Below are positions 643 through 25,792 of a stretch of 64,000 nt of DNA, one piece after another. The stretch spans positions 28,668,503 through 28,732,502 of the forward strand of contig CM120640.1 in assembly GCA_051362555.1 (NCBI GenBank), given 5' to 3'. Numbering within the stretch: position 1 is the first letter of the stretch; every line of letters starts with the position of its first letter. The position numbers and the translations under genes were made by a program. The notes under the pieces were generated by a model that made no database searches, was not told the origin of the DNA, and saw nothing but the letters and a program-made list of their open reading frames with translations. Origin of the DNA: Lingula anatina (Eukaryota; Animalia; Brachiopoda).

Positions 643-3481
643 ATGGCTTCAGTTGATCCAAATGATTTAGCTGGTGATTTAACTCAAAACTTGGAAAACT
701 CCTTAAAAGAAGAAAAGGCCAGAAATGAATCAGACTCAGATAAAAAATCCTTCATCAAAGATGATAATTATGGTATTAATAAAAAGGATTATCATGAAAA
801 TGAAAACTCTCAGCATCAAAAATGCGAAACTGATGTACCAGTAGATGAAGTTGAAGCAGGAGAAAGTGACTCTGATGTAGATAAATGTACAAAACCGGAT
901 GAGAATGATATAGTTGTAGATGAGGAATACATGAAGAAATTAGAAGAAAAAATGTCAGAAGAAGAAAAACAGGTATAAATAATAAAGTACTTTTTAAAAC
1001 TGTATTTACCTCTTTAAGGCATCGAAGATAGAAGCTATGGAAAATGGGTATCTCTAAATGGTGCAATACATTGCAAAACGGCCAAACACAGTGCAATGCA
1101 CATGAATAAACAAGTCCAGTTGCAAGTATACATGATAAATGGTCATTTCAAACAAAATGAGGTGATACAAAAGATATTAAAATATATTGCTAATTGATTA
1201 ATATTGTTGTTGCAACTTAAAGGGATAATAACTCTTCGTACGAGATCTATATTTCACAATAAAAACCTTGTGAATAACTCATAGAAATATAATATATTCT
1301 GTTTTACCACAAAAACAGCAGTTATAGATTTTATTCTGATATCTAAACTTGTCTTTAGACCACGTGACCTCCATTGATGTCTATACTCTGTTAAAATCTC
1401 TTAAGAGATTTTAACAAAAAACCAAACTTTTTAGAAAAAAACCAGGGACTAACTTTGAATGTAAAAATGGATTCATTAACCATTGGTAAGTATGGGAAAA
1501 TTGTTGTTTACTCCAGGAAAATTCATTTTTTGGCCGAAATGAAGAGTTATTATTGCTTTAACAAATCATGCTGGTAATATTATGAAGAAGAGTCACTCTC
1601 TGCCATTGGCTGCCGACCCAACAATATACAAGTCTCACCAATTTGTTAAATTATATCAGCGGTATTAATTATCTAGTAATATGTATATATTTTTTTATAT
1701 CACCCTTTTTTGTTTGGAATATCTTTTTTTTTTTTCAGTGTATTGTACTGTGTTGCGCTATATTGTGGTGTATTGCACAATTTAGGCAGACCACTTGAAA
1801 ATATATTGTTAATACAGTTTATTTATGATCAAATAAAATTTATTTGAATTAAAGCAAATGCAGTATGTATTCCTAAATGATTTTTTTAGGTAAGAAAAGA
1901 TGAAGCCCAGGCACTTAAAGCAAATGGGAACAGCCACTTTAAGGCCAGTGAGTTTCAACTTGCTATTTGCTCATATACCCAGGCACTCCAGACATGTCCA
2001 CTTTGTTTTCAAAAGGAAAGGGCTATCATGTATTCCAACAGAGCTGCATGTAGACTCCATTTAGTAAGTTTTTGAGTTATTATTATTATTATTATTATTA
2101 TTATTGAAGTTAAAGGGATAATAACTCTTCGTATGAGATCTATATTTCACAATAAAAACCTTGTGAATAACTCATAGAAATATAATATATTCTGTTTTAC
2201 CACAAAAACAGCAGTTATAGCTATTATTCTGATATCTGAGCTTGTCTTTAGACCACGTGACCTCCATTGATGGCTATACTCTGTTAAAATCTCTTAAGAG
2301 ATTTTAACAAAAAAACAAACTTTTTAGAAAAAAACCAGGGACCAACTTTGAATGTAAAAATGGATTCATTAACCTTTGGAAAGTATGGGAAAATTGTTGT
2401 TTACTCCAGGAAAATTCATTTTTTGGCCGAAACAAAGAGTTATTATTGCTTTAAGCAATTTCAATTGATAGAATGATTTCCCTAGATTGGTTCACTATTT
2501 AAAATATATAATTTAAACAATATTTTATAACAAAAACTGTGATAATTTTTCTTCGTTTAAAGATTGATACAAGGTATGTATTAAGGGCATTTTCTTTGAG
2601 GCATTTGAAAAAAAACTCTTTTCAGAAACAGTACGAAAAGGCTATTGAAGACTGTACCAAAGCACTAGAACTTAATCCTAATTATCTCAAAGCACTTTTA
2701 AGGAGGGCAGAAATGTATGAAAAGACTGAAAAATTAGATGAGGCATTAGAGGATTACAAAAAAGTAATTGAAATGGATCCAACACAACATACTGCAAGGG
2801 AAGCATGTATTGTAAGTCTGGTATCATAAAAACAGTCTCAAATACTTTAGATTTGTGTTACATGGTTTTCTGTAATGTGTCAATGTGTAGTAAGTGAAAT
2901 ATAAAAATGGTGTTCGTATATGTTTAAAAGCATTGCAAATTTGCAATAGAAAAAAATGCTAATAGTACTAAAATGTAACAGTGCAATATTCACTTAAATT
3001 TAAAGATATTGAAATAATTTCAAGTCAGCATATTGTTTTTATTCATAAGAGAACTAATCAGTGAACTTTTGAATCTGATTTAATCTATGTTTATTTTCAT
3101 CTCTTCAGCGATTGCCACAGCAAATTACAGAAAGAAATGAGAAAATGAAAGATGAAATGATAGGTAATTTTTATCTTCAGTCCTACATTTTGAAATATTT
3201 CACATTACAGCAAAATCTTTTAGACTGGTCTTCTGCTCTTTGATTTCAATAAAAATCAACATATTTATTAAAAATTTGATTCTTGAAACATTTGAGTTTT
3301 GTATTAATCTTATCATTCAGAGCAATAGTGGAAGTATTTACATTTTCTCATTCTAGGAAAGTTAAAAGAACTGGGGAACATGGTACTAAAACCCTTTGGA
3401 ATGTCTACTGACAATTTCAAATTACAGCAAGATCCAAATACAGGATCATATTCTGTGCAGTTTCAACAAAATGCAAAATAG
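643..3481 (+). CDS. TTC1: Tetratricopeptide repeat protein 1 (TPR co-chaperone), intact, 289 aa
   Basis: join(643..972,1890..2063,2626..2811,3109..3163,3357..3481) = 870 nt, all introns GT-AG, frame continuous. Acidic N-terminus, then [58 protein letters not shown] / [62 protein letters not shown] / [18 protein letters not shown] / [41 protein letters not shown]. This matches the TPR motifs and the characteristic GKLK.LGN..L.PFG.ST.NF...QD..TGSYS C-terminus of metazoan TTC1. Confidence 0.96.
1047..1792. mobile_element. Old foldback/MITE-like element in TTC1 intron 2, defined by ~55-bp degenerate inverted arms
   Basis: 1047-1101 (ggtatctctaaatggtgcaatacattgc...aacacagtgcaatgcac) is an imperfect reverse complement of 1738-1792 (gtgtattgtactgtgttg...gtattgcacaatttaggcagacc). 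A younger MITE is nested inside. Confidence 0.5.
1217..1561 (+). mobile_element. Non-autonomous DNA transposon (Kolobok-like MITE), ~337 bp plus TTAA TSDs
   Basis: TTAA|AGGGATAATAACTCTTCG ... GAAGAGTTATTATTGCT|TTAA. TTAA TSD with purine (AG) termini fits Kolobok rather than piggyBac (CCY termini). Near-identical copies at 2110-2454 and, inverted, at 10598-10943. Confidence 0.85.
2110..2454 (+). mobile_element. Kolobok-like MITE, second copy, in TTC1 intron 3
   Basis: Same TIRs, TTAA TSD and body as 1217-1561. It is absent from the duplicated intron-3 copies (e.g. ~12908-12921 reads gaagtgtagcaatt). Confidence 0.85.
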
Positions 3482-4160
3482 ATTTAAAAAAAATATCAAG
3501 GGTGGTGATCCTTTATACCACAAGTAAAAGTTTTCCATGTATTTGTCCAGTCAGAAGAAGCTGCAATTAGAACTTTTCTAAAATAGAGAACGTAGCTGGC
3601 TTTATCATCCTTCAGATGCCTTAAATGGTTTAGCTCAGTAGCAAGGATTGTTCTGATATTTATCAACTTGTTTAAAAGGGTACCACACAGCAGATATTCT
3701 TAACATAAGCCAACAAAAAACTATAAAGGATAAAGATAAGAATTTGCTTGATTGGCAAAATGACTGCTCAGGCATGGTTTTTTTTAAATATTAATTTAAG
3801 GTGATTTTAAAATATTTCCTGCCAAAATGAAGCCTTGATGCCCATATCTTGTCTGTCTACATAAGGAAGCAGTGCTGTGTCATCAATAGGTGCTGATGGT
3901 GAGAGAAAATCTGATTGTGAATAGAGTAATACAAAACGCCTTTTAAACTTTTTGAGCAAGCAGGAAGGAAAAGACATCTATTTACCCAAGAGAAAGAAAT
4001 GCAGATTGTCCTTAGAGCACAGATTCTTTTTATATCTGTTTGAGTTAAAGAAAACAGTTTATTGCCTCATTCACAATCAGTTTAGTTGGTTGTAGTTCAC
4101 TTGGATAAAAGACTGATTGCAACAATAAAATAATGCAATTTATTGTCTCCATGTGATTTC

Positions 4161-4221: not shown

Positions 4222-4532
4222 ATGTACATAACTTTTGACATAAATATTATAAATGTACAAATTAAGCAACTGATGCTGCAAAACAAATAATAATAATAAT
4301 GAACAACTTTTTATATATATTTACCATGGTATTCTATTTACATTACATATGTACAAACATGAAACAAAATTTCATGTTTACTATATACAACCTGAACAAG
4401 TAAAAGCTCTCAAGATTGTTCATAATGTCCATTGCAGTTAATGGGTGCATATACATGGGTGGCATTTCATGTATGTACAGTGTTTATTTTTTTCATTCAG
4501 TTTTTATGAAAAAAAAAGGAAATACAGTCAGT

Positions 4533-6393
4533 TTAGTAGCGGACTAACTGGCGAAGCTTGGTGATAATCCAAGATTTTAGTTTCTTCATCCTACTGATTA
4601 TAGCTGTCCTCCTGGGCTTGGACACTATATATAAAGAAAAAGCATATATGTGAAATGAGGCTCATATTATCTCTTTGAAAAATTTCACTGAGGTATACTC
4701 TTCACATCTGGATACTTATACAGATACCAAATTTAGAACGGGAATGATTAAGAAGAATGTAAAAAAATTTACATTGAATTCTGCTAGTTGTTGAAAAATG
4801 AAACAAAATACCTTTTCCCTCTGTAGTTGGAGCTAAGTTTTCATCATCAAGAGGGATTTCTACAAATCCTGTGAAAAAATAAAAATTAGTGTCAAGGCGT
4901 GATATCATGGTGCCGTATTAGAATTGTAGTTGTATTTGTGTAAGGAAAGGATCTTTTCTATTAGAATACAATTTGTTAAATACGCTTTGCTTGGGTGAAA
5001 AAAAAAAGGTAGAATTACCTTTGCACTTCACAACATTTGAGTAGCTAACTGTCGTTTATGAAAAAAATGTGAACAATTTTGGATTTCATTTTTGCTTCTA
5101 TGATGTTAAGCCATGAGACTTTACCTTGATCAATACTGCTTTCCCTTTCCCAAAATGTGCGACAGCCAAAGGTAGAATCTGTCTGCACAAACACAGCCTC
5201 TCTCTGTACCCGCTCTGGGGCTAGAACACCGCTGCTAGGTGTAAGTTTTCTCAGGTGATAGATGCCCTCCACAGCTGAAAAAAGATAAAATCATGGAAAT
5301 TTTTGCCGCTAAATACAAGCTATATTAATAAATGAATGGAAAGGGTCCATATCTGCTTTAGAAAAAACAATCATAAAAATTCCTTGTATCTCAGGCATTT
5401 GTTTTATACTATTTCCAATGCTGAAAATTTACAAACATGAAGGTAGGCTTTTACCTTGAAGTACACAGTCATCTTTTCCAAAATATGTACAGCAGCCATT
5501 TGTGGAAACTGCCTGTACAAATACATTGTCTTTTTGTTCCTGCTTTGGAACTAGAACAGCAACACTGGGTGTACTGTTTTGTGGATGGTAAATGCCCTTA
5601 AGGACTGGAAATGAAAAATAAATATTGATTCATTCATCTTTAATAACAGTCATATCAAGAATAAAAGATGTACTTCTGATTTTGAAATACTTCAGATGCA
5701 AACAGATGCCCATAGCTATTTTCTCACCTTTTTCATCACTCCATCTTTCTATCATTTCCATAACAAAGGACTCCAATTTTAACATTTTAAACTGAAAATG
5801 TTGAGAAAATAAAAAACAAAATAAAAAATTAAATAAACATAAAATAAAAAGAATAGATATTTTTTTTAAAAAATGAAAGAAAGTAAGAAAAAGAAAGACA
5901 GATAAAAATAATCAAACCAATGGATAACAATGGAAGCAAATATAAATGTTATGACAGATAATTCCAACTCAAAGTAACGTCATTAAAGGAAATCTAGGAA
6001 ACTTTCAAAACGTACGTAAGATAAAACCCCAATCAAGGAAGTTTTCGATAAAAACAATTTATTTGGCTTGTCTTAATTTGGTGTTTATTTACTTTATTTT
6101 CGAAGGTTCTTCTGCTGTTTTTTTTTATTATTTATTTTGTTCAATTTTTAAAACTTTCAAACGTCCAAAGCTGTAGATCTAAATGTCCGGGAGAAGGTTT
6201 TGCATATAGCCGTACGAAAATTTCTTTTGCCGATTTTTCGTAAAATGTATGCCCACATGCATAAAAAACATTTAGGAAGAAAAGTAACTGGCGTGATTTA
6301 ATAACTCTAACATATAAAACATCATAAAAATATTATCGTCTTCGATTAAATGAAAATATCTTCCTGAATTTTTTCGATACTCACCTCGCTCAT
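4533..6393 (-). CDS. Uncharacterised spliced orphan gene, copy 1 (~173 aa): two 50-aa repeats, acidic FVEIPL motif, cationic amphipathic C-terminus
   Basis: complement(join(4533..4624,4812..4868,5125..5274,5455..5604,5728..5791,6385..6393)) = 522 nt. All introns are GT-AG with pyrimidine tracts, and the last four are phase 1. Protein: MSEFKMLKLESFVMEMIERWSDEKVLKGIYHPQNSTPSVAVLVPKQEQKDNVFVQAVSTNGCCTYFGKDDCVLQAVEGIYHLRKLTPSSGVLAPERVQREAVFVQTDSTFGCRTFWERESSIDQGFVEIPLDDENLAPTTEGKVSKPRRTAIISRMKKLKSWIITKLRQLVRY*. The first 9-nt coding exon is less certain; an alternative ATG lies at 5785. Confidence 0.8.
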
Positions 6394-6560
6394 TGAAAAA
6401 ATGCGCAAATCTGCCGCTTTTGTTGCTAGGCACGCTCTCCAATGTGATTGGCTGAAAGTTCGCTGAAACTCGAGCGTTTACGTTTTTTTCCGCCTCCGAC
6501 ATACATGCAATGGAAAAGAGTGACGCCTGTGAAGCTTGATCGCTTGTCAGGATTCCATAT
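6394..6560 (-). promoter_or_regulatory. Putative promoter/5' UTR of the orphan gene
   Basis: Locally CpG-rich patch in an AT-rich background, with inverted CCAAT/ATTGG boxes (~6439-6452) and a TGACG CRE half-site (~6521). It lies directly upstream of the strong - strand donor GAG|GTGAGT at 6385/6384. Confidence 0.45.
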
Positions 6561-7264
6561 CCCGTTATGAGTGATGGGTGCTGGCAAATATACACTGTAC
6601 ATTTCATTACAAAATAGGCACGTTGCCAAAGATGGTATGTCTTTTTCTCTGTCAGAATTCTCTGATATTCTCGTTTTGTTCGTTCAAATATGGCAATATC
6701 CAAGGAATAATTTACACATGAAATTCAGCTTCTTTCATTATCATTTCAGAACTTCAAAACACAATTTTGAAAGCTACGAGGACTTATTTGCGTACGTCTT
6801 TGACCTCATAACTACCAACCCGTAATTTTATTTATTTTTCAAATTTATATGGGATTTGCTGAGCAAAAAGTCATTTTGTAAGTCGGCATTCTTTTAACAA
6901 AAGTGTTTTTTTTTTCTATGTACTTTAATTGTGTTTGCTCCATTTTGTTTTACTTCATCTTTGTTGAGGTTTTTTGTTCAGGAAGAAGACCCCTTTCACT
7001 CTTTTATATGTCAGCATTATTTAAAAAAAAAGCTTTAAAATATCTTGTAACACAGCTTTATGCAGACTTAAGGGGCCTAGCAATTAAATCTCAGAGTGGT
7101 TTTATTTTATCTTTAAATCCTATATAGGCCACTGTAAGGATGGCATGTGTGGTAGGTGGGGGAAACCATTAAGGTAGTATGAGGCTTTGCTTTCAAGTAG
7201 GTCCACCATATTTGATCCTTGAAACAGTTAGTCCTAGGATCAAACTGTATTGAATGCGGCCCTA

Positions 7265-7988
7265 GATCCAACACAACATGCTGTGGGGGAAGCATGCATT
7301 GTAAGTGTAGTATTACAAATACTGGTCTTAGGTATTGCAGATTTTTGTTATGTTGTGTATTTTTGTGTAGTAAAACCAAATATGAAAAACAAACGGTGTT
7401 CATATGTTTGAAAAACATTGATTTTCAAAAAAGTGCATATAGGAATACAATATTAGAAAACAGAGGTTACCATAGCAATTTGAAGAAAGAAATGATAAAA
7501 TGAAAGATGCACTGATAGGTAAATTTTATTTCAGATATTTTAGCACTACAATACCAGTACATTTTGAAATACTTTATATGAAAGCAAAATGTTTTAGACT
7601 GGTCATCTGCTCATTGATTTTTATAGCAGTCAACATATTTATTAAAATTTTGATTCTTGTTACATTTGAGTTTTGTATTAATCATCTCATTTTTGAGAAT
7701 TTGGTTTTATTGACAGAATTGGCAGCTCTAGCATGGATTTTTAAAAATATCAATTAAGGGTGTTCTTTAAATATTTCCTGCCAAAATAAATTCTGGATGC
7801 CAAAATCTGATATCTGTCTACAAAGGAGAGTGGTGATTTGTGCTCAATAGGTGCTGTTGGTGAGAGCAAATCGGATTGCAAGTAAAGTGATAAGAAAAGC
7901 ACCATTTTTACTTTTTGTTTTCAGCAAGCAGAGGAGAATAGACATCTATTTTCTTAAGATGAAGAAATGCAGATTGTCCTTAGAGCAG
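7265..7988 (+). pseudogene. Old, decayed TTC1 3' relic (end of exon 4, intron 4, exon 5, part of intron 5, 3' UTR); repeated in every unit
   Basis: gatccaacacaacatgctgtgggggaagcatgcatt|gtaagt resembles the TTC1 exon 4 end. gaaagaaatgataaaatgaaagatgcactgatag|gtaaattt resembles exon 5. 7710-7988 resembles 3750-4020. Many substitutions and deletions. Confidence 0.8.
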
Positions 7989-8272: not shown

Positions 8273-10515
8273 TTTCAGTCTCTTTAAATATAAAAATTTA
8301 GTGATTGTAGGCCATCGCCGTCGTCGCCGTCGCTGTGCACTCAGCGATAACATGGTAAGTGGAATACCGTTTTACATTTTATATTCAAATTTACAGAACT
8401 GATGAATATTCATAATACGCAGGTCAAGTTCAAAAATCAGCATGATCGGGCCATTTTTAGGGAAGTTATGCTGTTTTTTCACTTTTTTTAGCATTATTAT
8501 AACACCGATAACACGATAAGTGAAAAACATTCTTACTTTTTGGCTATAAAAATGTAGTGATTGTAGGCCATCGCCGTCGTCGCCGTTGCTGTGCACTCAG
8601 CGATAACACAATAAGTGAAAAATCGTTTTACCTTTTGGCTTGAAACTTACAGAATTGATGAATATTTATAATACACAGGTCAAATTTGAAAATCAGCATG
8701 ATCGGGCCATTTTAAGGGAAGTTATGCGGTTTTTTCACTTTTTTCAGCATATATGCAGCACTGATAACACAATATAAGATTAACAGATGGGCAAATTGTC
8801 ATTATACTCACAGGACTGGTCAATCTTACTAAAACGTAGGATGAGTTGGAAAAGCAGCATAATCGTGCCATTATTTTAGATGTTATGCTGTTTTTCACAT
8901 TTCCTCAGATTCAATTCTTAAGCATGTTAACAGTCTCATTATTGAACTAATAAGATACGTAAAAGTGTTTGTTTGACATTTCCTGCATCTTTATAACATT
9001 GTTAGTTGATTATGTAAAAATGATGGTAAACTTGTTATTGTGTATTATGTTATAAAGTGTCAAAAATGGAAATAAACTCATATCATTGCAGTTTGTCAGA
9101 TTCAATCATCTACTATCTTCAGAATCTCAGAATGGAGGAAATTGGACATTTAACACTGTTCTATTGATATTTTCCCATCTCATCAATTTTCTTAGTTGAT
9201 CATATAAAAATGTCAGTAAGCAGTTTATTTTGGGTTTTTTTTTCACTTATTTTAGGATTTTTATAACACCTATAACATAATAAGTGAAAAACATTTTTAC
9301 TTTTTGGCTTCAAACTTATAGAACTGATGAATGTTCATAAATCGCAGGTCAAGTTTGAAAATCAGCATTATCGGGTCAATTTTATGGAAGCTAAGAACTT
9401 CCACTTCTAAGAACTTTTCACTTTTTTCAGCATATATGCAGCACTGATAACACAATAAGTGAAAAACCGTTTTACCTTTTAGCTTGAAACTTACAGAACT
9501 GATGAATATTTATAATACGCAGGTCGAGTTCGAAAATCGGCATGATCGGGCCATTTTAAGGGAAGTTATGCTGTTTTTTCACTTTTTCAGCATATATGCA
9601 GCACTGATAACACAATATAAGATTAACAGATCTGCCAATTGTCATTATACTCACAGGACTAGTCAATCTTATTAAAAGGTAGGATGAGTTCGAAAATCAG
9701 CATAATCGGGCCATTATTTTAAAAGTTATGCTGTTTTTTCACATTTCCTCAGATTCAATTGTTAGGCATGTTAACAGTCTCATTATTGAACTAATAAGAT
9801 ACGTAAAAGTGTTTGTTTGACATTTCCTGCATCTTTATAACATTGTTAGTTGATTATGTAAAAATGATGATAAACTTGTTATTGTGTATTATGTTATAAA
9901 GTGTCAAAAATGGAAATAAACTCATATCATTGCAGTTTGTCAGATTCAAACATCTACTATCTTCAGAATCTCAGAATGGAGGAAACTGGACATTTAAAAT
10001 TGTTCTATTGATATTTTTCCTATGTCAACAATTTTCTCAGTTGTTCATTTAAAAATGACAGTAAATTGATTATTTTGTTATATGAAAAAAAGGTGTTGAA
10101 AATAGAAAGAAAATCAGTTCAATACAGTTATCTCTTGTATACATTTTGGCATTTTGAAAGTGTGACTCTGAACTTCCATGGCCTTGAAGACCTTTCCATG
10201 GCACATTTTCTGTATATCCATGATACTTTTATTTTATTATTAAAAATTGATGGTCATTATGTTATATTGCATAAAAGTTGAAGAAAACCCTATTTTGGAA
10301 ATGGCTGCCGTAATGACCATTAAGGAAAAACCATGTTACTTATGATACTCAAACTTACTGAAAAGTTTCGTAAGACTGACGTGCAGTTTGTGTTGGAAAA
10401 TCAGTGTGATTGTTTTCTGTTTTGGAAGCAATGCAGCTCTATAGAGTGCTATATGGGGCTACTGTTTATGGATGGTGGTAATTGTCCCTTGGGGTAGTCA
10501 CAAGCTAAATTCAGA
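8273..10515 (+). mobile_element. Helentron/HINE (DINE-1-like) non-autonomous element with internal ~150-bp tandem repeats; copies at ~18643-20951, 32310-34618, 42739-45047, 53966-56274
   Basis: A 5' (CGT/CGC)n microsatellite (gccgtcgtcgccgtcg) is followed by repeated monomers gaaacttacagaactgatgaatatt..ataatacgcaggtcaagttcgaaaatcagcatgatcgggccatttt..ggaagttatgctgttttttcactttt. There is a larger internal duplication (~8600-9200 vs ~9430-10040) and an imperfect 3' hairpin near 10478-10501. Boundaries are approximate; the family call rests on architecture only. Confidence 0.55.
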
Positions 10516-10597
10516 GCTATTAAATCATTTGCCTAATTAATTTCCAAGTGCCCATTAAATAAGATTACATAAAACACACGTTGAGATTTCCCATAGG

Positions 10598-10943
10598 TTA
10601 AAGGGATAATAACTCTTCGTTTTGGCCAAAAAATGAATTTTCCTGGAGTAAACAACAATTTTCCCATACTTACCAATGATTAATGAATCCATTTTTACAT
10701 TCAAATTTAGTCCTTGGTTTTTTTCTAAAAAGTTTGGTTTTTTTGTTAAAATCTCTTAAGAGATTATAACAGAGTATAGCCATCAGTGGAGGTCACGTGA
10801 TCTTAAGACAAGCTCAGATATCAGAATAATAGCTATAACTGCTGTTTTCGTCGTAAAACAGAATATATTATATTTCTATGAGTTATTTACAATGTTTTTA
10901 TTGTGAAATATAGATTTCATACGAAGAGTTATTATCCCTTTAA
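10598..10943 (-). mobile_element. Kolobok-like MITE, inverted copy with perfect TIRs
   Basis: TTAA|AGGGATAATAACTCTTCGT ... ACGAAGAGTTATTATCCCT|TTAA; the body is the reverse complement of 1217-1561. Confidence 0.88.
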
Positions 10944-12282
10944 GCTCTCTTAACTGTGTTACATAATTAGGAATCTGTGATAATTATGCAGGTAAATGTT
11001 GTTTAATATTGCAAATAAGTTAACAAAAGAAAAAATAATTTGAATAACAGTGCCTTATTATCCTCAAACACATTGGGGTTATTCATATCATGTTATTACA
11101 GCAAGATTAAAAGTTTGAATAGCAGCTTTAATGGGATATTTTTGTTTTGTTTTCTTTTTAATTTATTTTTCAAACATTTCAAGCATTTTCAGCTCCCATC
11201 CACCTGAAGCTCTTCACATTTTCTGTATTTCCACGTAAGCAGTTGCATTGGTTTTTATGTCTTTAAACATTATGTAATATTATTTTATGCACTGTCATCA
11301 TTATTCAAATATTGGGATTTTCATTATGTGAATTTGGTCCTGAAACTGTAATCTTATTGCAGGGGCAGATTGAGACTGTCTTCTGGGTCTTTCAGATTTT
11401 AAAGTTCACATTGATGGGTATCTGTTTTTTCTGTTGGAAGACCATCAAAAATGTAGGATGGATCAACAAAGATAATTTGGAATACTGTCAGAAAATATCC
11501 CTGGATCCGCTCCTGTTATTGACGATGTCACCTGTTGTGCATGATTAAAATTCAGTGTTGATTGACAGTGCTATTGTAGGCATGATTTATCATTGCATTA
11601 AAATTGACAAAAGGAACCATTTTCTGCATTTTTATTTTCTGTTTTTGTCTGTACATTTGACAGCTTTGCTGCCTTGTTTTTTTTTTTTTTTTTTTTTTTT
11701 TGTTTAAACATAGGTTGTCTATTGTACTAAATGAACACTGGATGGCTATCTGGGAAAAGTCTTGCCTTAGAGTCAATTTGATCTTTTTACGTCTTGTAAC
11801 ACAGCTTCAGGTATAAGATAACAATATGTGGCCTCTTTCAGTCTCTATAAATATAAAAATGTAGTGATTGTAGCTTGGATAAATGATTGACTGTTACAAG
11901 TAAATTAATGAATGCAATTTTTTACATGCTTTCTTTTATTCAAAATATAAATTATATATATGAAATATGCATGATTTGAGGAGAATTGACATCAGTATCA
12001 TAAGTAATACAAATTCAGCAATTTATGTTGTAAAAAAAGAAATAATATTTAATGTTGTATATACTTTACATACTGTATATATGTATGCTATTCTATTTAC
12101 ATATGTACAAATATTATGAAACAAAATTACATGTTTATTATGTACAATTTGTACAAGCTCTTTCTGGAATGCTAATAAAATCCCTTCAAAACTGCAGTGA
12201 ATGGATGCATATACATGTACATGGCTATTTGTTTATGCACAATGTCCAAGTGATTTTTCTCATACAGTTGTGAACAGTCATT

Positions 12283-12664
12283 TCAGTATTTGACTAGCTG
12301 TCGCAGCTTGGTCATCATCCAAAACTTAAATTTCTTCATCCTGCTAAGGCTATAAGGATGGGTGTCTTCCTGGGCTTGGACACTATATATCAAGGAAAAA
12401 GTTTATATGTAAAATGGGGCACATATTTTCTCTGTAAAGAATTTTATTAAGACATATTTATAGATCTTGATTATAATGCACTTGGGATGATTATAAAACC
12501 ATCTAACTCACTTGTTACAACTTACTTTACATTCAAATCTGCCATCACCCAATTGAAAATAATTTAATTGTTTTATAAAATTTGAACACAATACCTTAAT
12601 TCTCCCTCAGTAGATGTACCTAATTTTTCATCGTCATCATCATCAAGATCAATTTCTACAAACC
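12283..12664 (-). other. Diverged paralogous terminal exon pair (D'/E') of the orphan gene: alternative 3' exons or a truncated paralog; copies at 25952-26333, 36387-36768, 46817-47198, 58043-58424
   Basis: complement(join(12283..12382,12595..12664)), GT-AG intact. Reads GFVEIDLDDDDDEKLGTSTEGELSVQAQEDTHPYSLSRMKKFKFWMMTKLRQLVKY*. Downstream, 11875-12280 is homologous to the orphan gene's 3' region (4095-4530). Confidence 0.7.
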
Positions 12665-12773
12665 CTGGTGGGAAAAAAGAAATATTTGAAAATTTTGATT
12701 CTTGAAACATTTGAGTTTTGTATTAATCTTATCATTCACAGCAATTCTAAGTATTTATATTTTCTCATTCTAG

Positions 12774-12880
12774 GAAAGTTAAAAGAACAGGGGAACATGG
12801 TACTAAAGCCCTTCAAATGGAATGTCTACTGACAATTTCAAATCACAGCAAGATCCAAATACAGGACCATATTCTGTGCA
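12774..12880 (+). pseudogene. Frameshifted TTC1 exon 6 copy at the unit junction (also before 26550, 36985, 47415, 58641)
   Basis: TTCTAG|GAAAGTTAAAAGAACAGGGGAACATGG... has a 4-nt insertion after the PF codons, giving [19 protein letters not shown]. It is fused directly to the TTC1 intron-3 donor GTAAGT. Confidence 0.85.
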
Positions 12881-13100
12881 GTAAGTTTTTGAGTTATTAT
12901 TATTATTGAAGTGTAGCAATTTCAGTTGATAGAATGATTTCCCTAGATTGGTTCACTATTTAAAATATATAATTTAAACAACATTTTATGACTGTGATAA
13001 TTTTTCTTTGTTTAAAGGTTGTGTTCAATTTGGCATGCATTGATACAAGGTATATATTAAGGGTGTTTTCTTTGAGGCATTTGAAAAAAACTCTTTTCAG

Positions 13101-13955
13101 AAACAGCACGAAAAGGCTATTGAAGACTGTACCAAAGCACTAGAACTTAATCCTAATTATCTCAAAGCACTTTTAAGGAGGGCAGAAATGTATGAAAAGA
13201 CTGAAAAATTAGATGAGGCATTAGAGGATTACAAAAAAGTAATTGAAATGGATCCAACACAACATACTGCAAGGGAAGCATGTATTGTAAGTCTGGTATC
13301 ATAAAAACAGTCTCAAATACTTTAGATTTGTGTTACATGGTTTTCTGTAATGTGTCAATGTGTAGTAAGTGAAATAAAAAAAAAATGATGTTCATATATG
13401 TTTAAAAGCATCGCAATAGAAAAAAAATGCTAAAGTGCTAAAGTGTAACAGTGCAATATTCACTTAAATTTAAAGATATTAAAATAATTACAAGTCAGCA
13501 AATTGTTTTTATTCATAAGAGAACTAATCAGTGAACTTTTGAATCTGATTGAATCTGTGTTTATTTTCATCTCTTCAGCGATTGCCACAGCAAATTACAG
13601 AAAGAAATGAGAAAATGAAAGATGAAATGATGGGTAATTTATATCTTTCAGTCCTACATTTTGAAATATTTTACAATAAAGCAAAATCTTTTAGACTGGT
13701 CTTCTGCTCTTTGATTTCAATAAAAATCAACATATTTATTTAAAATTTGATTTATGAAACATTTGAGTTTTGTATTCATCTTTTCATTCAGAGCAATAGT
13801 GGAAGTATTTATATTTTCTCATTCTAGGAAAGTTAAAAGAACTGGGGAACATGGTACTAAAGCCCTTTGGAATGTCTACTGACAATTTCAAATTACATCA
13901 AGATCCAAGCACAAGTTTTCCATGTATTTGTCCAGTCAGAAGAAGCTGCAATTAG
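13101..13955 (+). pseudogene. TTC1: Headless TTC1 fragment (exons 4-6), U2
   Basis: Exons 13101..13286, 13579..13633 and 13828..13955 with intact splice sites. Exon 6 has a deletion removing the native stop and ends ...[21 protein letters not shown]. No exons 1-3 in the unit. Confidence 0.85.
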
Positions 13956-14882
13956 AACTTTTCTAAAATAGAGAACATAGCTGGCTTCATCATCCTTTAG
14001 ATGCCTTAAATAGTTTAGCTCAGTAGCAAGATTATTCTGATATTTATCAACTTGTTTAAAAGGTTACCACACAGCAGATATTCTTAACATAAGCCAACAA
14101 AAAACTATAAAGGATAAAGATAAGAATTTGCTTGATTGGCAAAATGACTGCTCAGGCCTTTATTTTTTAAATATTAATTTAAGGTGATTTTAAAATATTT
14201 ACTGCCAAAATGAAGCCTTGATGCCCATTTCTTGTCTGTCTACATAAGGAAGCAGTGCTGTGTCATCAATAGGTGCTGATGGTGAGAGAAAATCTGATTG
14301 TGAATAGAGAAATACAAGACGCCTTTTAAACTTTTTGAGCAAGCAGGAAAGAAAAGACATCTATTTACCCAAGAGAAAGAAATGCAGATTGTCCTTAGAG
14401 TACAATTCTTTTTATATCTGTTCGAGTTAAAGAAAACAATTTATGGCCTCATTCACAGTCTCATTTGAGTTGGTTGTAGTTCACTTGAATAAAAGACTGA
14501 TTGCAACAATAAAATAATCCAATTTATTGTCTTTATGTGATTTCTTTATTATAAATAAAATTATATATATAAATGATATGTACATAACTTTTGACATAAA
14601 TATTATAAATGTGTACAAATTAAGCAACTGATGCTGCAAAACAATAATAATGAACAACTTTTTATATATATTTACCATGGTATTCTATTTAACATATGTA
14701 CAAACATGAAACAAAATTTCATGTTTACTATATACAACGTGAACAAGTAAAAGCTCTCAAGATTGTTCATAATGTCCATTGCAGTTAATGGGTGCATATA
14801 CATGGGTGGCGTTTCATGTATGTACAGTGTTTTTTTCATTCAGTTTTTATGAAAAAAGAAAAGAAAAGGAAGAACAGTCAGT

Positions 14883-16716
14883 TTAGTAACGGATTAACTG
14901 TCTCAGCTTTGTGAGTATCCAATATTTTATTTTCTTCATCCTACTTAGTATAGCTTTCCTTTGGGGCTTGGACACTATATAAAGGAAAAGCATATATGTG
15001 AAATGAGGCTCATATTATCTCTTTGATAAATTTCATTGAGGTATTCTCTTCACATCTTGATACTTATACACATACCAAATTTAGAACGGGAATGTTAAGA
15101 AGAATGGAAAAAAATTTACATTGAATTCTGCTAGTTGTTGAATAATGAAATAAAATACCTTTTCCCTCTGTAGTCGGAGCTAATTTTTCATCATCAAGAG
15201 GGATTTCTACAAATCCTGTGGAAAAACAAAAATTACTGTCAAGGCTTAATATCATGGTGCCGTATTAGAATTGTAGTTATATTTGTGTAAGGAAGGGATC
15301 TTTTCTATTAGAATACAATTTGTTAAATATGCTTTGCTTGGGTGAAAAAAAAGTAGAATAACTTTTGCACTTCACAACATTTGAGAAGCTAACTGTCATT
15401 TAAGAAAAAAAAGTTCTGAACAGTTTTGGGTTTCATATTTATATGTTAGATTAAAGTCCTGATACTGTACCTTGATCAATACTGCTTTCCTTTTCCCAAA
15501 ATGTTCGACAGCCAAAGGTAGAATCTGTCTGCACAAACACAGCCTCTCTCTGTACCCGCTCTGGGACTAGAACACCGCTGCTGGGTGTAAGTTTCCTCAG
15601 GTGATAGATGCCCTCCACAGCTGAAAAAAGGTACAAGCTATATTAATAAATGAATGGAAAGGGTCCATATCTGCATTAGAAAAACAATCATAAAAATTTC
15701 ATGTATCTCAGGCATTTGTTTTATACTATTTCCAACACTGCAAATTTACAAGCATGGAGGGAGGCTTTTACCTTGAAGTACACAGTCATCTTTTCCAAAA
15801 AATGTACAGCAGCCATTTGTGGAAACTGCCTGTACAAATACATTGTCTTTTTGTTCCTGCTTTGGAACTAGAACAGCAACACTGGGTGTACTGTTTTGTG
15901 AATGGTAAATGCCCTTAAGGACTGGAAATGAAAAATAAATATTGATGTTAGATTCATTCATCTTTAATAACAGTCATATCAAGAATAAAAGATGTACTTC
16001 TGATTTTGAAATACTTCAGATGCAAACAGATGCCCATAGCTATTTTCTCACCTTTTTCATCACTCCATCTTTCTATCATTTCCATAACAAAGGACTCCAA
16101 TTTTAACATTTTAAACTGAAAATGTTGAGAAAATAAAAAACAAAATAAAAAATTAAATAAAAAAAAAATAAGAAAAAGAATAAATAATTTTTTTTAAAAA
16201 TGAAAGAAAGTAAGAAAAAGAAAGACAGATAAAAATAATTAAACCAATGGATAACAATGAAAGCAAATATAAATGTTATGACAGATAATTCCAACTCAAA
16301 GTAACATTAAAGGAAATCTAGGAAACTTTCAAAACGTACGTAAGATAAAACCCAATCAAGGAAGTTTTCGATAAAAACAATTTATTTGGCTTGTCTTAAT
16401 TTGGTGTTTATTTCCTTTATTTTCGAAGGTTTTCTGCTGTTTTTTTTTAAATTTAATTTTGTTTAATTTTTTAAAACTTTTAAACGTCCAAAGCTGTAGA
16501 TCTAAATGTCCGCGAGAAGTTTTTGCATATAGCCGTACGAAAAATTCTTTTGCCGATTTTTCGTAAAATGTATGCCCACATGCATAAAAAACATTTAAGA
16601 AGAAAAGTAACTGGCGTGATTTAATTACTCTAACATATAAAACATCATAAAAATATTATCGTCTTCGATTAAATGAAAATATCTTCCTGAATTTTTTCGA
16701 TACTCACCTCGCTCAT
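14883..16716 (-). CDS. Orphan gene, copy 2 (intact)
   Basis: complement(join(14883..14974,15159..15215,15471..15620,15772..15921,16052..16115,16708..16716)); same exon sizes and splice sites as copy 1; C-terminus VSKPQRKAILSRMKKIKYWILTKLRQLIRY*. Confidence 0.78.
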
Positions 16717-19700
16717 TGAAAAAATGCGCAAATCTGCCGCTTTTGTTGCTAGGCACGCTCTCCAATGTGATTGGCTGAAAGTTCGCTGAAACTCGAGCGT
16801 TTACGTTTTTCTCCGCCTCCGACATACATGCAATGGAAAAGAGTGACGCAGACGCCTGAAATATTTCACAATATTTGATCGGTTGTCAGGATTCCATATC
16901 CCGTAATGAGTGATGGGTGCTAGCAAATATACATTTCATTACAAAATAGGCACGTTGCCAAAGATGGTATTTTTTTTTCTCAGTCAGAATTCTCTGAAAT
17001 TCTCGTTTTGTTCGTTCAAATATGGCAATATCCAAGGAATAATTTACACATGAAATTAAGCTTCTTTCATTATTATTTCAGAACTTCAAAACACAATTTT
17101 GAAAGCTACGAGGACTTAAAAGCTATAAATTTGCGTACTCAGTACGTCTTTGACCTCATTACTACAGTACCAACCCGTAATTTTATTTATTTTTCAAATT
17201 TATATGGGATTTGCTTAGCAAAAAGTCATTTTGTAAGTCGGCATTCTTTTAACAAAAGTGTTTTTTTTTTTTTTTTTCATGTACTTTAACTGTGTTTGCT
17301 CCATTTTGTTTTACTTCATCTTTGTTGAGGTTTTTTGTTCAGGAAAGACTCCTTTCACTCTTTTATATATCAGCATAATAAAAAAAAAAGCTTTAAAATA
17401 TCTTGTAACACAGCTTCATGCAGACTTAAAGGGCCTAGCAATTAAATCTCTGGTTTTATTTTATCTTAAAATCCTATATAGGCCACTGTAAGGATGGCAT
17501 GTGTGGTAGGTGGGGGAAACCATTAAGGGAGTATGAGGCTTTGCTTTCAAGTAGGTCCACCATATTTGAGCCTTGAATCAGTTAGTCCTAGGATCAAACT
17601 GTATTGAATGCGGCCCTAGATCTAACACAACATGCTGTGGGGGAAGCATGCATTGTAAGTGTAGTATTACAAATACTGGTCTTAGATATTGTAGATTTTT
17701 GTTGTGTTGTGTATTTATGTGTAGTAAAACCAAATATGAAAAACAAACGGTGTTCATATGTTTGAAAAACATTGATTTTCAAAAAAGTGCATATAGGAAT
17801 ACAATATTAGAAAACAGAAGTTACCATAGCAATTTGAAGAAAGAAATGATAAAATGAAAGGTGCACTGATAGGTAAATTTTTATTTCAGATATTTCAGCA
17901 CTACAGTACCATGCAGTAAATTTTGAAATACTTTATATGAAAGCAAAACATTTTAGACTGGTCCTCTGCTCATTGATTTTAATAGCAGTCAACATATTTA
18001 TTAAAATTTTGATTCTTGTTACATTTGAGTTTTGTATTAATCATCTCATTTTTGAGAATTTGGTTTTATTGACAGAATTGGCAGCTCTAGCATGGATTTT
18101 TAAAAATATCAATTAAGGGTGTTCTTTAAATATTTCCTGCCAAAATAAATTCTGGATGCCAAAATCTGATATCTGTCTACAAAGGAGAGTGGTGATTTGT
18201 GCTCAATAGGTGCTGTTGGTGAGAGCAAATCGGATTGCAAGTAAAGTGATAAGAAAAGCACCATTTTTACTTTTTGTTTTCAGCAAGCAGAGGAGAATAG
18301 ACATCTATTTTCTTAAGATGAAGAAATGCAGATTGTCCTTAGAGCAGGGGTTTCTGCAGGATTTGCATCACAGTAGGTCAACATTCCAAAACGTTGATCT
18401 GTAATTTGGTAATTTGGTCACCAATTTACAAGAAATTCAACTACAAATATACTGTCATTTCTAAATATTTCATAAGCCATCCAGCCTTTTTTTTTTTTTT
18501 TTTTTTTTTGAAAAACATAGGTTGTCTATTGTATTAAATGAACACTGGATGGCTATCTGGGAAAAGTCTTGCCTTAGAGTCAATTTGATCTTTTTATATC
18601 TTGTAACACAGCTTCAGGTATAAGATAACAATATGTGGCCTCTTTCAGTCTCTTTAAATATAAAAATGTAGTGATTGTAGGCCATCGCCGCCGTCGCCGT
18701 CGCTGTGCACTCAGCGATAACACGATAAGTGGAATACCGTTTAACATTTTGTATTCAAATTTACAGAACTGATGAATATTCATAATACGCAGGTCAAGTT
18801 CAAAAATCAGCATGATCGGGCCATTTTTAGGGAAGTTATGCTGTTTTTTCACTTTTTTTAGCATTATTATAACACCGATAACACGATAAGTGAAAAACAT
18901 TCTTACTTTTTGGCTTGAAACTTATAAAGCTGATGAATATTCATAATATGTAGGTCAAGTTCGAAAATCAGAGTTATCAGGTCAATTTTATGGAAGTAAT
19001 GCTGTTTTTTCACTTTTTTCAGCATATATGCAACACTGATAACACAATAAGTGAAAAAACGTTTTACCTTTTGGCTTGAAACTGACAGAATTGATGAATA
19101 TTTATAATACGCAGGTCAAATTTGAAAATCAGCATGATCCGGCCATTTTAAGGGAAGTTATGCTGTTTTTTCACTTTTTTCAGCATATATGCAGCACTGA
19201 TAACACAATATAAGATTAACAGATGGGCAAATTGTCATTATACTCACAGGACTGGTCAATCTTACTAAAACGTAGGATGAGTTGGAAAAGCAGCATAATC
19301 GTGCCATTATTTTAGATGTTATGCTGTTTTTCACATTTCCTCAGATTCAATTCTTAAGCATGTTAACAGTCTCATTATTGAACTAATAAGATACGTAAAA
19401 GTGTTTGTTTGACATTTCCTGCATCTTTATAACATTGTTAGTTGATTATGTAAAAATGATGGTAAACTTGTTATTGTGTATTATGTTATAAAGTGTCAAA
19501 AATGGAAATAAACTCATATCATTGCAGTTTGTCAGATTCAATCATCTACTATCTTCAGAATCTCAGAATGGAGGAAATTGGACATTTAACACTGTTCTAT
19601 TGATATTTTCCCATCTCATCAATTTTCTTAGTTGATCATATTAAAATGTCAGTAAGCAGTTTATTTTGGGTTTTTTTTTCACTTTTTTTAGCATTTTTAT

Positions 19701-22559: not shown

Positions 22560-25500
22560 AAACTACAATTAAGAGAATTAATTGTATTTATGTAGCAAAT
22601 GGTTTGTTTTAGTGGTGCTATTAACTTTTTGGTAATACATCAACGTTTTGTTTGGGTCTTGTGTCTGCACATTTTGACCTTAAGTAGTTGACCAAGACAA
22701 GGTGTTAACAGATGTCCAGGGTTAAGGAATGTCTTAGCTGCTGTGTATCAAGGCACACACAAGTATATTCTATGAAAGATGTTTTGGAGATTAATTCCAT
22801 CGAGCTGCATTCAGTGAAAAGTCATTCAGCTTTGTAGCTGCGGATATATTTACCCGCAGTTTTAGCAGCTACACTGTATTATTACTTACGTTTCTTTATT
22901 GTTATTTGTACACTGGTTACCAGTCATCACTTTTGTGGTTTCAAGATTTGGGGACGACTATTTGTTACTTGGTGACTAATTTCTTCGGATTATTCAGTTT
23001 TCCCCAGCCACCAGTTTTGGTATTCAAGATTCAGCGACGGCTGTTGACGGTTATTTGTTACTTGGTGACTTTATTTTATTTGGACAATATTCACTTTTCT
23101 CCAGTCACCAGTATTTGATATTCAAGTTTCGGCGACGGCTGTTTCCTTTTACGGGATGACTTCAAGTTTTGGATCACACACAGGCTAGTATTTGTTTTCA
23201 TTTCTCCCCTTTTTTCACGTGTTCTTATCAATACATTTATAATTGTTGTGTTATGCAACTACAGTTGTTACCTATTTTGTTTAGGTGTCACTCATCATGT
23301 TATTTTTGATTTTTTTTTTCTTTTGTGTGCATCTATTTTATTTATGTTTATATTCCTATCGGGCCAGGTGTTGTTGCAGTTTTCATATTTCCTATTTCCT
23401 GGCTGTCATTGACATGCCGTAATCTAGTCATATCCTATTTCCGATTGTCTCCGTGTCCGCATTACCAGGTGGAGTATTATTAGGGGTTTCTGGTCGACTA
23501 GGCGATATGCATTTTTGGAGTTTTTATGCTCTTTGTTCTGGGTGTACTTCCCAGGTTTTTAACTGTTTGCCTAGTAGTGAGAACCCTGTAGTGGTATCTG
23601 GTATACTAGGTTCTGGGTGTATTTCCCAGGTTTTTTAACTGTTTGCCTAGTAGTGAGAGCCCTTTGTGGTATCTGGTATACTAGGTTCTGGGTGTATTCC
23701 CAGATTTTTAACTGTTTGCCTAGTAGTGAGAGCCCTTTGGTGGTATCTGGTATACTAGGTTCTGGGCGGGGATGTGAGCTTCTCTCACATCATATGGCCT
23801 TTTATTTTCATTTGCGCCAACTTTTTGCTCCTATAGCTGTTGTGATTTCTCATATTTTTCATAATTAATCCTGGTTACATTTCATTAACATACTTTATTA
23901 TTTTTATATTTAGCACTTATATAGTTTGGGGGATGTTTATTATCTCCCCAGTTTTGTAACTTTGTATCTTATTAGTTTTCGTCATTAATAAATGACAATT
24001 TCAGTCATATGGACTTATCCTACTTAATTTGGAGCAAAAACAGAGCTTCGTTGTGCTTGTGAACATTTGGCTACATAAAACTACAATTAAGAGAATTAAT
24101 TGTATTTATGTAGCAAATGGTTTGTTTTAGTGGTGCTATTAACTTTTTGGTAATACATCAACGTTTTGTTTGGGTCTTGTGTCTGCACATTTTGACCTTA
24201 AGTAGTTGACCAAGACAAGGTGTTAACAGATGTCCAGGGTTAAGGAATGTCTTAGCTGCTGTGTATCAAGGCACACACAAGTATATTCTATGAAAGATGT
24301 TTTGGAGATTAATTCCATCGAGCTGCATTCAGTGAAAAGTCATTCAGCTTTGTAGCTGCGGATATATTTACCCGCAGTTTTAGCAGCTACACTGTATTAT
24401 TACTTACGTTTCTTTATTGTTATTTGTACACCCTCCACCCTCCCCTACCACCTGCCTTCATCCTTGTGGTGTTTTTAACACTTAGACTTATTTACTTTCA
24501 AGCGGCACCTGTGTGACATAATTAAGGGGGGCACCTATTTGGATAGTGCCACTTTGCCTCTGGTAGGCCTGCTAATCAGAGGCATATGAGTTCAGTTATT
24601 CAGGAGACAGTTAATGCTCTCCCTCACTTTTCTCGTAAATTTCACAACATTAAGAAGTGCATTATTCAGGAGTAAAAATTTTGAGGTGATGTTTGGTAAA
24701 CTTATTCAACCCCCCCCCATATTTTTTTTTTCTCTTTCCATGACTAATGAAGCAGATTTGAGCATTGGCTCAATGTAACATGGTTGTATTTATGCTTGTT
24801 AGCTATAACTCATTTGGCACATTAATTAGTCATTTCAGATTATCTGGTTATCATTTGTTTATTGATATATATCATACATGTGAGATTATTACTTTAAAAC
24901 TATAGTTAGGTAAATGTACTATGCAGGGCATATGAGGCAGTACGTAGGCCAAGAGAGACAACTCTATGATTGGGCTGTCAGAGCAATGAGGAAACCTACG
25001 TCCCCGTCCTAAAAAGGTAGGGGTTGCGTAGCTCGCTCTCAGCCTAGGCCGGCTTTAGAATGTGCCTTTTGCCTTTTCTTTTCATTTGCGCCAACCATTT
25101 GCGCCAACTTTTTGCTCCTATAGCTGTTGTGATTTCTCATATTTTTCATAAGCCTTTTATTTTCATTTGCGCCAACTTTTTGCTCCTATAGCTGTTGTGA
25201 TTTCTCATATTTTTCATAATTAATCCTGGTTACATTTCATTAACATACTTTATTATTTTTATATTTAGCACTTATATAGTTTGGGGGATGTTTATTATCT
25301 CCCCAGTTTTGTAACTTTGTATCTTATTAGTTTTCGTCATTAATAAATGACAATTGCCTTTTATTTTCATTTGCGCCAACTTTTTGCTCCTATAGCTGTT
25401 GTGATTTCTCATATTTTTCATAATTAATCCTGGTTACATTTCATTAACATACTTTATTATTTTTATATTTAGCACTTATATAGTTTGGGGGATGTTTATT

Positions 25501-25792
25501 ATCTCCCCAGTTTTGTAACTTTTTCATTTGCGCCAACTTTTTGCTCCTATAGCTGTTGTGATTTCTCATATTTTTCATAATTAATCCTGGTTACATTTCA
25601 TTAACATACTTTATTATTTTTATATTTAGCACTTATATAGTTTGGGGGATGTTTATTATCTCCCCAGTTTTGTAACTTTGTATCTTATTAGTTTTCGTCA
25701 TTAATAAATGACAATTTCAGTCATATGGACTTATCCTACTTAATTTGGAGCAAAAACAGAGCTTCGTTGTGCTTGTGAACATTTGGCTACAT
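22560..25792. mobile_element. Non-autonomous element with split direct repeats (A1-x-B1-A2-y-B2), no TSD; DIRS-order (Ngaro/PAT-like) retroelement candidate, private to U2
   Basis: A1 ~22560-22913 = A2 ~24077-24431. B1 ~23797-24076 = B2 ~25522-25792, with partial B reiterations at 25071-25520. The empty site gaaacAAAAttacatg is seen in U1, U3, U4 and U5. No long ORF. Confidence 0.7.
23535..23766. repeat. ~75-bp minisatellite (x3) inside the U2 insertion
   Basis: ttctgggtgta.t.cccag.tttttaactgtttgcctagtagtgaga.ccct...gtggtatctggtatactagg repeated three times. Confidence 0.9.

What the first reader, a model, noticed from the sequence alone, without database searches (positions are those of the whole stretch)
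4533..6393. Hidden six-exon orphan gene is the only intact cargo of a 10.4-kb tandem amplification (at least 6 copies)
Seen: splicing the - strand at canonical GT-AG sites joins exons of 9/64/150/150/57/92 nt into an open 173-aa frame, and exon sizes, phases and stop position are kept in all six units while neighbouring introns carry indels. TTC1 in U2-U6 is headless. The protein has no signal peptide, two 50-aa repeats, an acidic GFVEIPLDD segment and a basic tail. I recognise no known family. Inference: a lineage-specific gene under dosage amplification, as seen for immune effectors, gamete proteins or selfish elements; the function is unknown.
Basis: partly seen in the sequence, partly recalled or inferred. 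Interest (0 to 1): 0.85.

Follow-up and report, generated by a model that had tools for sequence, protein, structure and literature searches.

The report
Brachiopod orphan gene in young array
A small spliced gene of the lamp shell Lingula, already in RefSeq as "uncharacterized" and with no relatives found elsewhere, sits in one older and five near-identical tandem copies; it likely encodes a weakly expressed adaptor protein, and the copies likely arose by ordinary unequal recombination rather than by selection for more product.

Summary
The gene model holds. Six GT-AG exons give an open 173-aa frame in all six copies. It is not hidden: RefSeq XP_013413501.1 (Lingula anatina) equals residues 25-173 of copies U2-U5. 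No homologue was found. Coding constraint is shown (U1 vs U2 dN/dS 0.29, p=0.005). Read depth implies two junctions, two reads each, in 2 of 4 runs. Exons 1-2 are unproven; three N-termini remain open.

Corrections: there are five near-identical units (0.04-0.26% apart) plus one older partial copy, built on earlier rounds of duplication. The gene is not the only active cargo. Its promoter fires outward into a more abundant RNA spliced into TTC1 fragments, and each unit carries an open, headless older copy of exons 5-6. Constraint centres on an acidic FVEI motif and a basic C-terminal helix, which suggests a short-motif adaptor (inferred). Dosage selection, immune, gamete or selfish roles got no support. 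Verdict: a real orphan gene in a young, probably neutral copy-number array.

The parts
643..3482 (+).
   Evidence: open frame, GT-AG; Pfam TPR_1 E 1.7e-18 on exon 3
4533..6393 (-). Orphan gene, older copy U1; six-exon model, 173 aa
   Evidence: junctions 5455>5274 and 5125>4868 implied by read depth
4533..4624 (-). Exon 6: basic C-terminal helix (net +10); U1 vs U2 divergence 16 of 92 nt against 36 of 777 in the flanks, a conversion-like tract
4812..4868 (-). Exon 5: acidic segment with FVEI (LIR-type core)
5125..5604 (-). Exons 3 and 4: two 150-nt phase 1-1 exon repeats (50 aa each)
   Evidence: no confident fold
6394..6504 (.). Likely bidirectional promoter: CpG-rich (observed/expected 1.08, GC 45% over 6385-6640 against 0.42 and 31% for the window), inverted CCAAT pair at 6439 and 6447
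   Evidence: transcription on both sides
6505..6634 (+). First exon of a divergent spliced RNA, U1-type letters, about 6 reads per million in X1 and X3
   Evidence: (depth, loose ends)
7265..7987 (+). Old TTC1 3' fragment (14-18% diverged); its AG at 7923-7924 is used as an acceptor by the divergent RNA (18 reads listed in X3)
8602..19037 (.). First full period (10,436 nt) of the young tandem array; later periods 13,667, 10,429 and 11,227 nt, then a partial one running off the window
12283..12664 (-). Headless older paralogue of exons 5-6 (70 + 100 nt); +13 and +8 nt changes compensate, the frame is open, and FVEI and the basic tail are kept; present in 5 of 5 young units
12774..12880 (+). TTC1 last-exon fragment (6% diverged) used as second exon of the divergent RNA (56 reads in X1, 61 in X3); joined to TTC1 intron 2 at a 3-nt microhomology that supplies a new donor
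13101..13957 (+). Headless TTC1 exons 3-5 with an 84-nt deletion that removes the normal stop
14883..16716 (-). Orphan gene copy U2 (RefSeq protein equals residues 25-173)
22561..25793 (.). 3,234-nt unclassified insertion private to one unit
28552..30384 (-). Orphan gene copy U3
38983..40816 (-). Orphan gene copy U4
49418..51251 (-). Orphan gene copy U5
51466..52255 (.). 790-nt insertion with an 8-nt target duplication and 6-nt inverted ends, about 215 nt upstream of the U5 start, inside the divergent first exon
60646..62478 (-). Orphan gene copy U6 (2 nt and 1 aa different from U2)

Best explanation
This is a spliced, purifying-selected Lingula gene without detectable relatives that likely encodes a small, mostly unstructured cytosolic adaptor, and its five youngest copies likely arose by unequal crossing-over between older duplicated pieces of the locus, without selection for dosage. 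Shown: the gene model, coding constraint, very low sense expression in the runs laid, and a layered history (fragments 14-20% diverged, a fragment at 6%, U1/U2 at about 4%, young units at 0.04-0.26%). Also shown: the U1 promoter fires outward and that RNA splices into TTC1 fragments, one of them inside the first young unit. Inferred for the protein: the predicted C-terminal cationic helix would dock on an acidic membrane or partner, and the acidic FVEI motif would bind a short-motif receptor, most plausibly of the ATG8/FIP200 type. These two elements are kept in three diverged versions while the linker between them has even changed frame. Inferred for the array: repeated TTC1-3'/orphan-3' blocks gave homology for misalignment, and the array is probably a segregating copy-number variant. 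My odds: real protein gene 0.9; amplification mainly mechanical or neutral 0.65; two-motif adaptor 0.35; ATG8/FIP200 as the partner 0.15.
For: Gene model in six copies. RefSeq model has the same three 3' junctions. dN/dS 0.29, p=0.005; 0.32 between the two exon repeats. X4: 4 of its 5 laid reads fall only in exons 3-4, 88 nt = 2 x 44 exonic nt in the junction bin and zero in the intron bin. X1: first-mate-plus depth fits only spliced two-read solutions at 5125>4868, on the strand opposite to the divergent RNA. AlphaFold2 is confident only for the tail helix (pLDDT 88-96 for blocks 141-162, under 50 for 1-132). The headless paralogue keeps FVEI and the tail with compensating indels. Only 2 [WFY]xx[LIV] cores exist in the protein, and FVEI is the optineurin LIR/FIR core (PMC7615515, passages). 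Units carry 33 substitution columns, 5 shared by the last two units, and private insertions. Young duplicates under negative selection are common in this species (PMC4595640, passages).
Against: The junction evidence is two reads each, possibly one molecule each, below the tool's listing threshold and inferred from binned depth; clipped reads were not modelled. No read tests exons 1-2 or the exon 5-6 junction. No peptide evidence exists. The hydrophobic moment of the tail is not significant against shuffles (p=0.08, 0.09 and 0.23). Positions -1 and -2 of the FVEI motif are not acidic, which the review calls important. Frame compensation in the headless copy could be chance (my rough estimate 1 in 5). 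All 4 X4 exon reads were of the amplified type, so the young copies are active and dosage could matter. Only 4 of 9 listed runs were laid, at 6-25% of their reads, and tissues are unknown.
Confidence: 0.55

Rival explanations
1. The array was favoured because more copies give more of a protein needed in one tissue or stage (gamete, embryo, immune cell).
For: It is the only complete protein gene in the unit. All five young copies are still intact. The exon reads in X4 carry the amplified-type letter. The locus was duplicated repeatedly.
Against: At 0.04-0.26% divergence the copies have had no time to decay. Sense expression was at most 0.4 reads per million in the 4 runs laid. There is no signal peptide and no positive selection. 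With five amplified copies to one old copy, amplified-type reads are expected anyway.
Confidence: 0.22
2. The locus behaves like a primate core duplicon: a transcribed, bidirectional core seeds repeated rearrangement and makes fusion RNAs with whatever lands beside it, and the array is a by-product of that instability.
For: At least four rounds of duplication around the same TTC1/orphan boundary. Fusion RNA from the core promoter into flanking fragments. A conversion-like exon 6 tract. X7 reads match intron 4 with letters of neither copy and run into sequence absent from the window, hinting at another copy elsewhere.
Against: The copies seen are tandem, not interspersed. There is no positive selection. 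No genome was held, so dispersed copies could not be counted. Causation by transcription is untested.
Confidence: 0.13
3. The functional product is RNA (the divergent fusion RNA, or antisense read-through that silences the gene), and the protein gene is decaying.
For: The + strand RNA is about 14 times more abundant than sense reads where each was seen (5.9-6.4 vs 0.4 per million, different runs). X1 has unspliced + strand reads over exon 5 and its introns, 5 of 6 listed letters of amplified type.
Against: There is a clear coding constraint. No Rfam family matched in 1-26000. The fusion RNA runs through broken gene pieces and has only 21- and 39-codon frames at its 5' end.
Confidence: 0.06
4. 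The young array is an assembly artefact.
For: Units are 99.7-99.96% identical, and read depth on genomic DNA was not measured.
Against: Units have private and shared substitutions and two private insertions. RNA reads join the U1 exon to a fragment found only in the young units, which supports at least the first junction.
Confidence: 0.04

Closest known systems
RefSeq XP_013413501.1 / LOC106175890, uncharacterized protein, Lingula anatina
   Same: Residues 14-162 are identical to residues 25-173 of copies U2-U5, so the same exons 3-6 and junctions.
   Different: RefSeq starts inside intron 2, a start that is out of frame in U1. It is a single-member cluster, and no U1-type protein was returned.
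Primate core-duplicon gene families such as NPIP/morpheus (PMC7419210 and PMC6920530, passages)
   Same: Lineage-specific gene in mosaic duplication blocks; two structural versions; fusion transcripts with flanking duplicated pieces that seldom keep a reading frame.
   Different: Here the copies are tandem, selection is purifying, expression is very low, and there is no sequence relationship.
LIR/AIM and FIR motif adaptors, e.g. optineurin DS-FVEI (PMC7615515, passages)
   Same: Same four-residue core in an acidic, low-confidence region, kept in the diverged paralogue.
   Different: Gly and Gln at -1 and -2 instead of acidic or phosphorylatable residues; no other domain shared; binding untested.
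Young duplicated genes of Lingula in general (PMC4595640, passages)
   Same: Recent duplicates under negative selection are reported as frequent in this genome.
   Different: This one has no known family, and the array structure was not found described.

Membership tests
Taxonomically restricted (orphan) protein gene | No detectable homologue outside the lineage | tested here: met
   Only itself among 1.84 billion representatives and among 14 near-length candidates; 0 of 317 longer candidates; PDB 0; Pfam only 2 hits below cut-off; Atlas no usable feature hit. Proteins under 89 aa were covered only.
Taxonomically restricted (orphan) protein gene | Absence from unannotated genomes of other brachiopods, phoronids and bryozoans | not testable with these tools
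   No animal genomes are held for six-frame search; one search gave no genome.
Taxonomically restricted (orphan) protein gene | Transcribed and spliced | tested here: met
   Thinly: 2 of 5 junctions implied by two reads each; RefSeq model shares 3 of 5.
Taxonomically restricted (orphan) protein gene | Coding constraint | tested here: met
   dN/dS 0.29, p=0.005; indels avoid exons.
Taxonomically restricted (orphan) protein gene | Translated | not testable with these tools
   No proteomics; identifiers and motif absent from the 1 supplement searched.
Core-duplicon gene family (NPIP type) | Interspersed copies around a shared core | tested here: inconclusive
   Tandem in the window; hint of another copy elsewhere; genome not held.
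Core-duplicon gene family (NPIP type) | Positive selection (reported for at least half of the families) | tested here: not met
   dN/dS 0.23-0.32 in all partitions.
Core-duplicon gene family (NPIP type) | Fusion transcripts with flanking duplicated segments | tested here: met
   6634>12774 and 6634>7925 from loose-end consensus.
LIR/AIM adaptor | [WFY]xx[ILV] core | tested here: met
   FVEI at residue 126, one of 2 cores; kept in the diverged copy.
LIR/AIM adaptor | Acidic or phosphorylatable residues at -1 to -3 | tested here: inconclusive
   Asp at -3 only; Gly and Gln at -1 and -2.
LIR/AIM adaptor | Binding to an ATG8 protein | not testable with these tools
Secreted immune effector, shell-matrix or gamete-surface protein | Signal peptide or transmembrane segment | tested here: not met
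   Best 19-residue hydropathy 0.49 for the 173-aa model; the other two N-termini were inspected by eye only.
Secreted immune effector, shell-matrix or gamete-surface protein | Rapid amino-acid divergence among copies | tested here: not met
   U2-U5 identical, U6 one residue different, U1 12 of 173.
Selfish or mobile element | Transposase or terminal repeats bounding the unit | tested here: inconclusive
   No long ORF in 6400-26500 (longest 150 aa stop-to-stop); these ORFs were not scanned against Pfam; unit ends fall in a 160-nt repeat tract.

The most novel reading that the evidence does not exclude
A brachiopod counterpart of a core duplicon: a lineage-specific autophagy or trafficking adaptor (LIR-type motif plus membrane-binding helix) whose bidirectional promoter seeds serial duplications. 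Each new unit places an in-phase alternative tail (the open older exons 5-6) downstream of the gene, and brings a promoter-TTC1 fusion within one stop codon of a new chimeric TPR gene.
Probability: 0.1. Interest if true: 0.65.

Novelty: new member of a known kind. Interest (0 to 1): 0.33.

Why it matters
Modestly. It is a clean, dated example of how an orphan gene is kept, remodelled and multiplied in an under-studied phylum, with promoter capture seen in RNA. The three diverged tails point to the two residue stretches worth mutating. It would matter more if the FVEI motif binds ATG8 (a newly evolved autophagy receptor) or if copy number proved to be selected.

Tried and rejected
Whole-genome search: no genome held. 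The run search listed no RNA holder; its 9 raw-read runs were added by species label, and 4 of 9 were laid. A second lay on copy U2 returned nothing, so the downstream structure of the divergent RNA, expression of headless TTC1 and of the older exons 5-6, and 5 further runs are untested. Homologue searches found only the RefSeq protein. Pfam: nothing for single exons; UBact E 0.02 and GAE_BBS1 E 0.08 are below cut-off and rejected. PDB by sequence and by repeat profile: 0. Atlas structure rows rest on a model with pLDDT 0.36 and are rejected. AlphaFold2 on the protein (mean pLDDT 41.5) and on the repeat (44.1) was too poor for a fold search, so none was run. Rfam: 0. The bacterial promoter scan is not applicable. 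Papers: 0 hits for LOC106175890 and XP_013413501; 0 in the 1 supplement file of PMC13425148. Supplements of the two genome papers were not read and may hold expression data. The X1/X3 depth at 5777-5958 and 6050-6231 is poly(A) mis-laying on A/T tracts and was dropped. I first read the older exons 5-6 as frameshifted and dead; one search reversed that. TTC1 exon-4 and fragment boundaries were off by one and are correct. No complex prediction was run, because no candidate partner was at hand. Earlier notes of the scan held nothing on this locus.

Full report
Observation. The same exon sizes, phases and stop recur at 14883-16716, 28552-30384, 38983-40816, 49418-51251 and 60646-62478. U2-U5 coding sequences are identical, U6 differs by 2 nt, and U1 differs from U2 by 25 nt and 12 aa. 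Conservation across six units is therefore one independent comparison. That comparison is informative: dN/dS is 0.29 (11.5 synonymous differences in 108.5 sites, 13.5 non-synonymous in 410.5; Fisher p=0.005), and introns hold 18 gap blocks against none in exons. An open frame alone would be weak evidence, since 34% of simulations with 25 random substitutions stay open.

Identity. A search with exon 3 returned one protein, labelled by its source as Lingula anatina uncharacterized protein LOC106175890, XP_013413501.1, a brachiopod. Its residues 14-162 equal residues 25-173 of U2-U5, so the gene is annotated, not hidden. Nothing else was found: 1 hit (itself) in 1.84 billion representatives, itself only among 14 near-length candidates, 0 of 317 longer ones, 0 in PDB, no Pfam family above cut-off, and no usable Atlas hit. 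Unannotated genomes of relatives could not be searched. Searches for both identifiers found no paper.

N-terminus. No read decides among them.

Expression. Four of nine listed runs were laid on 4230-6930, at 6-25% of their reads. No splice joint reached the listing threshold. In X4, 4 of 5 laid reads lie only in exons 3-4; the junction bin holds exactly 2 x 44 exonic letters and the intron bin none, which implies two reads across 5455>5274. All four carry the amplified-type letter at 5484. In X1, the first-mate-plus depth fits only spliced solutions among two-read models of 100-151 nt, across 5125>4868 (clipped reads not modelled). X3 and X7 show no such reads. The gene is thus spliced but rare in these samples, whose tissues are unknown.

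Unexpected RNA. X1 and X3 have about 6 reads per million on 6505-6634, opposite in strand to the gene, with loose ends matching 12774 onward (56 and 61 reads) and 7925 onward (18 reads in X3); both targets follow an AG. The region between the two starts is CpG-rich with an inverted CCAAT pair, so I read it as a bidirectional promoter (inference). The 12774 target exists only in the young units, which supports that junction as real DNA. In silico, continuing through the new donor at 12880 into headless TTC1 leaves one stop codon between a 39-aa frame and the TPR frame. That continuation was not observed, and the second lay gave no data.

Array. The period is 10.43 kb from about 8602, with private insertions of 3,234 and 790 nt. 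The five units differ by 0.04-0.26%, with 33 substitution columns, 5 shared by the last two. U1 is an older partial copy. Older layers lie inside each unit: a TTC1 fragment at 14-18%, a fragment at 6% joined at a 3-nt microhomology, and an older orphan 3' half at 16-20%. TTC1 is whole only in U1 (289 aa). Reported heterozygosity is 1.6%, and young duplicates are 2-4 times more frequent than in other lophotrochozoans, many under negative selection (PMC4595640, passages). The simplest reading is unequal crossing-over among pre-existing repeats, giving a young copy-number variant (inference).

What the protein likely does. AlphaFold2 without homologues is confident only for the C-terminal helix; the repeat gives no confident model. 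There is no hydrophobic segment; the tail is net +10 and exon 5 net -4. Exon 6 differs between U1 and U2 at 16 of 92 nt against 36 of 777 in the flanks (p=3e-5), with dS 0.58 and dN/dS 0.23, which looks like conversion from a diverged copy (inference). The headless older copy has +13 and +8 nt changes that compensate, keeping FVEI and the basic tail while the linker is read in another frame. Three diverged versions thus keep the same two elements. FVEI is the core of the optineurin LIR/FIR (PMC7615515, passages), but positions -1 and -2 are not acidic and the tail's amphipathicity is not significant against shuffles. I commit to a two-motif cytosolic adaptor at 0.35 and to an ATG8/FIP200 partner at 0.15.

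Comparison. It meets the tests for an orphan gene that could be run. It resembles primate core duplicons in mosaic history and fusion RNA (PMC7419210 and PMC6920530, passages) but fails positive selection and is tandem, so I do not file it there. It fails the secretion and rapid-divergence tests for immune, shell or gamete proteins. Papers seen: passages of PMC4595640, PMC7615515, PMC6920530, PMC7419210 and PMC13121700 (also its abstract and outline); one supplement file of PMC13425148 by term search; all others as search listings only.

Verdict. A real but ordinary kind of finding, an orphan gene in a young tandem array, with two extras worth a follow-up: promoter capture seen in RNA, and natural variants that isolate two motifs. 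Interest 0.33.

Noticed in passing
window 6505-6634 (+) spliced to 12774 and to 7925: Divergent spliced RNA from the orphan's promoter into TTC1 fragments, seen in X1 and X3 and with U1-type letters only; one stop codon away from an in-frame fusion to headless TTC1 in silico.
   Followed up: partly
window 12283-12664 (-) and equivalents in the other four young units: Open headless paralogue of exons 5-6 with compensating indels; its acceptor has the same phase as the exon-4 donor upstream, so it could serve as an alternative tail (untested).
   Followed up: partly
window 4533-4624: Sharply bounded high divergence of exon 6 between U1 and U2, suggesting gene conversion from an unseen copy.
   Followed up: partly
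window 4867-5070 and 4300-4320: X7 reads match intron 4 and the 3' flank with letters of neither U1 nor U2 and run into sequence not in the window, hinting at a further related copy elsewhere.
   Followed up: partly
window 4321-4957: A few unspliced + strand reads in X1, mostly with amplified-type letters, antisense to the orphan's 3' end.
   Followed up: partly
window 1197-1561, 2091-2454, 10597-10944: A roughly 350-nt element with inverted ends in TTC1 introns 1 and 2 and once per unit in reverse orientation; the intron-2 copy is absent from U2-type TTC1.
   Followed up: no
window 51466-52255: 790-nt insertion with an 8-nt target duplication in the U5 promoter-side exon; an 8-nt duplication is typical of hAT elements (recalled).
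   Followed up: no
window 22561-25793: 3.2-kb insertion with internal 355-, 204- and 157-nt direct repeats, unclassified.
   Followed up: no
window 8289-10077: Tract of about 160-nt degenerate repeats where the young unit's boundary falls.
   Followed up: no
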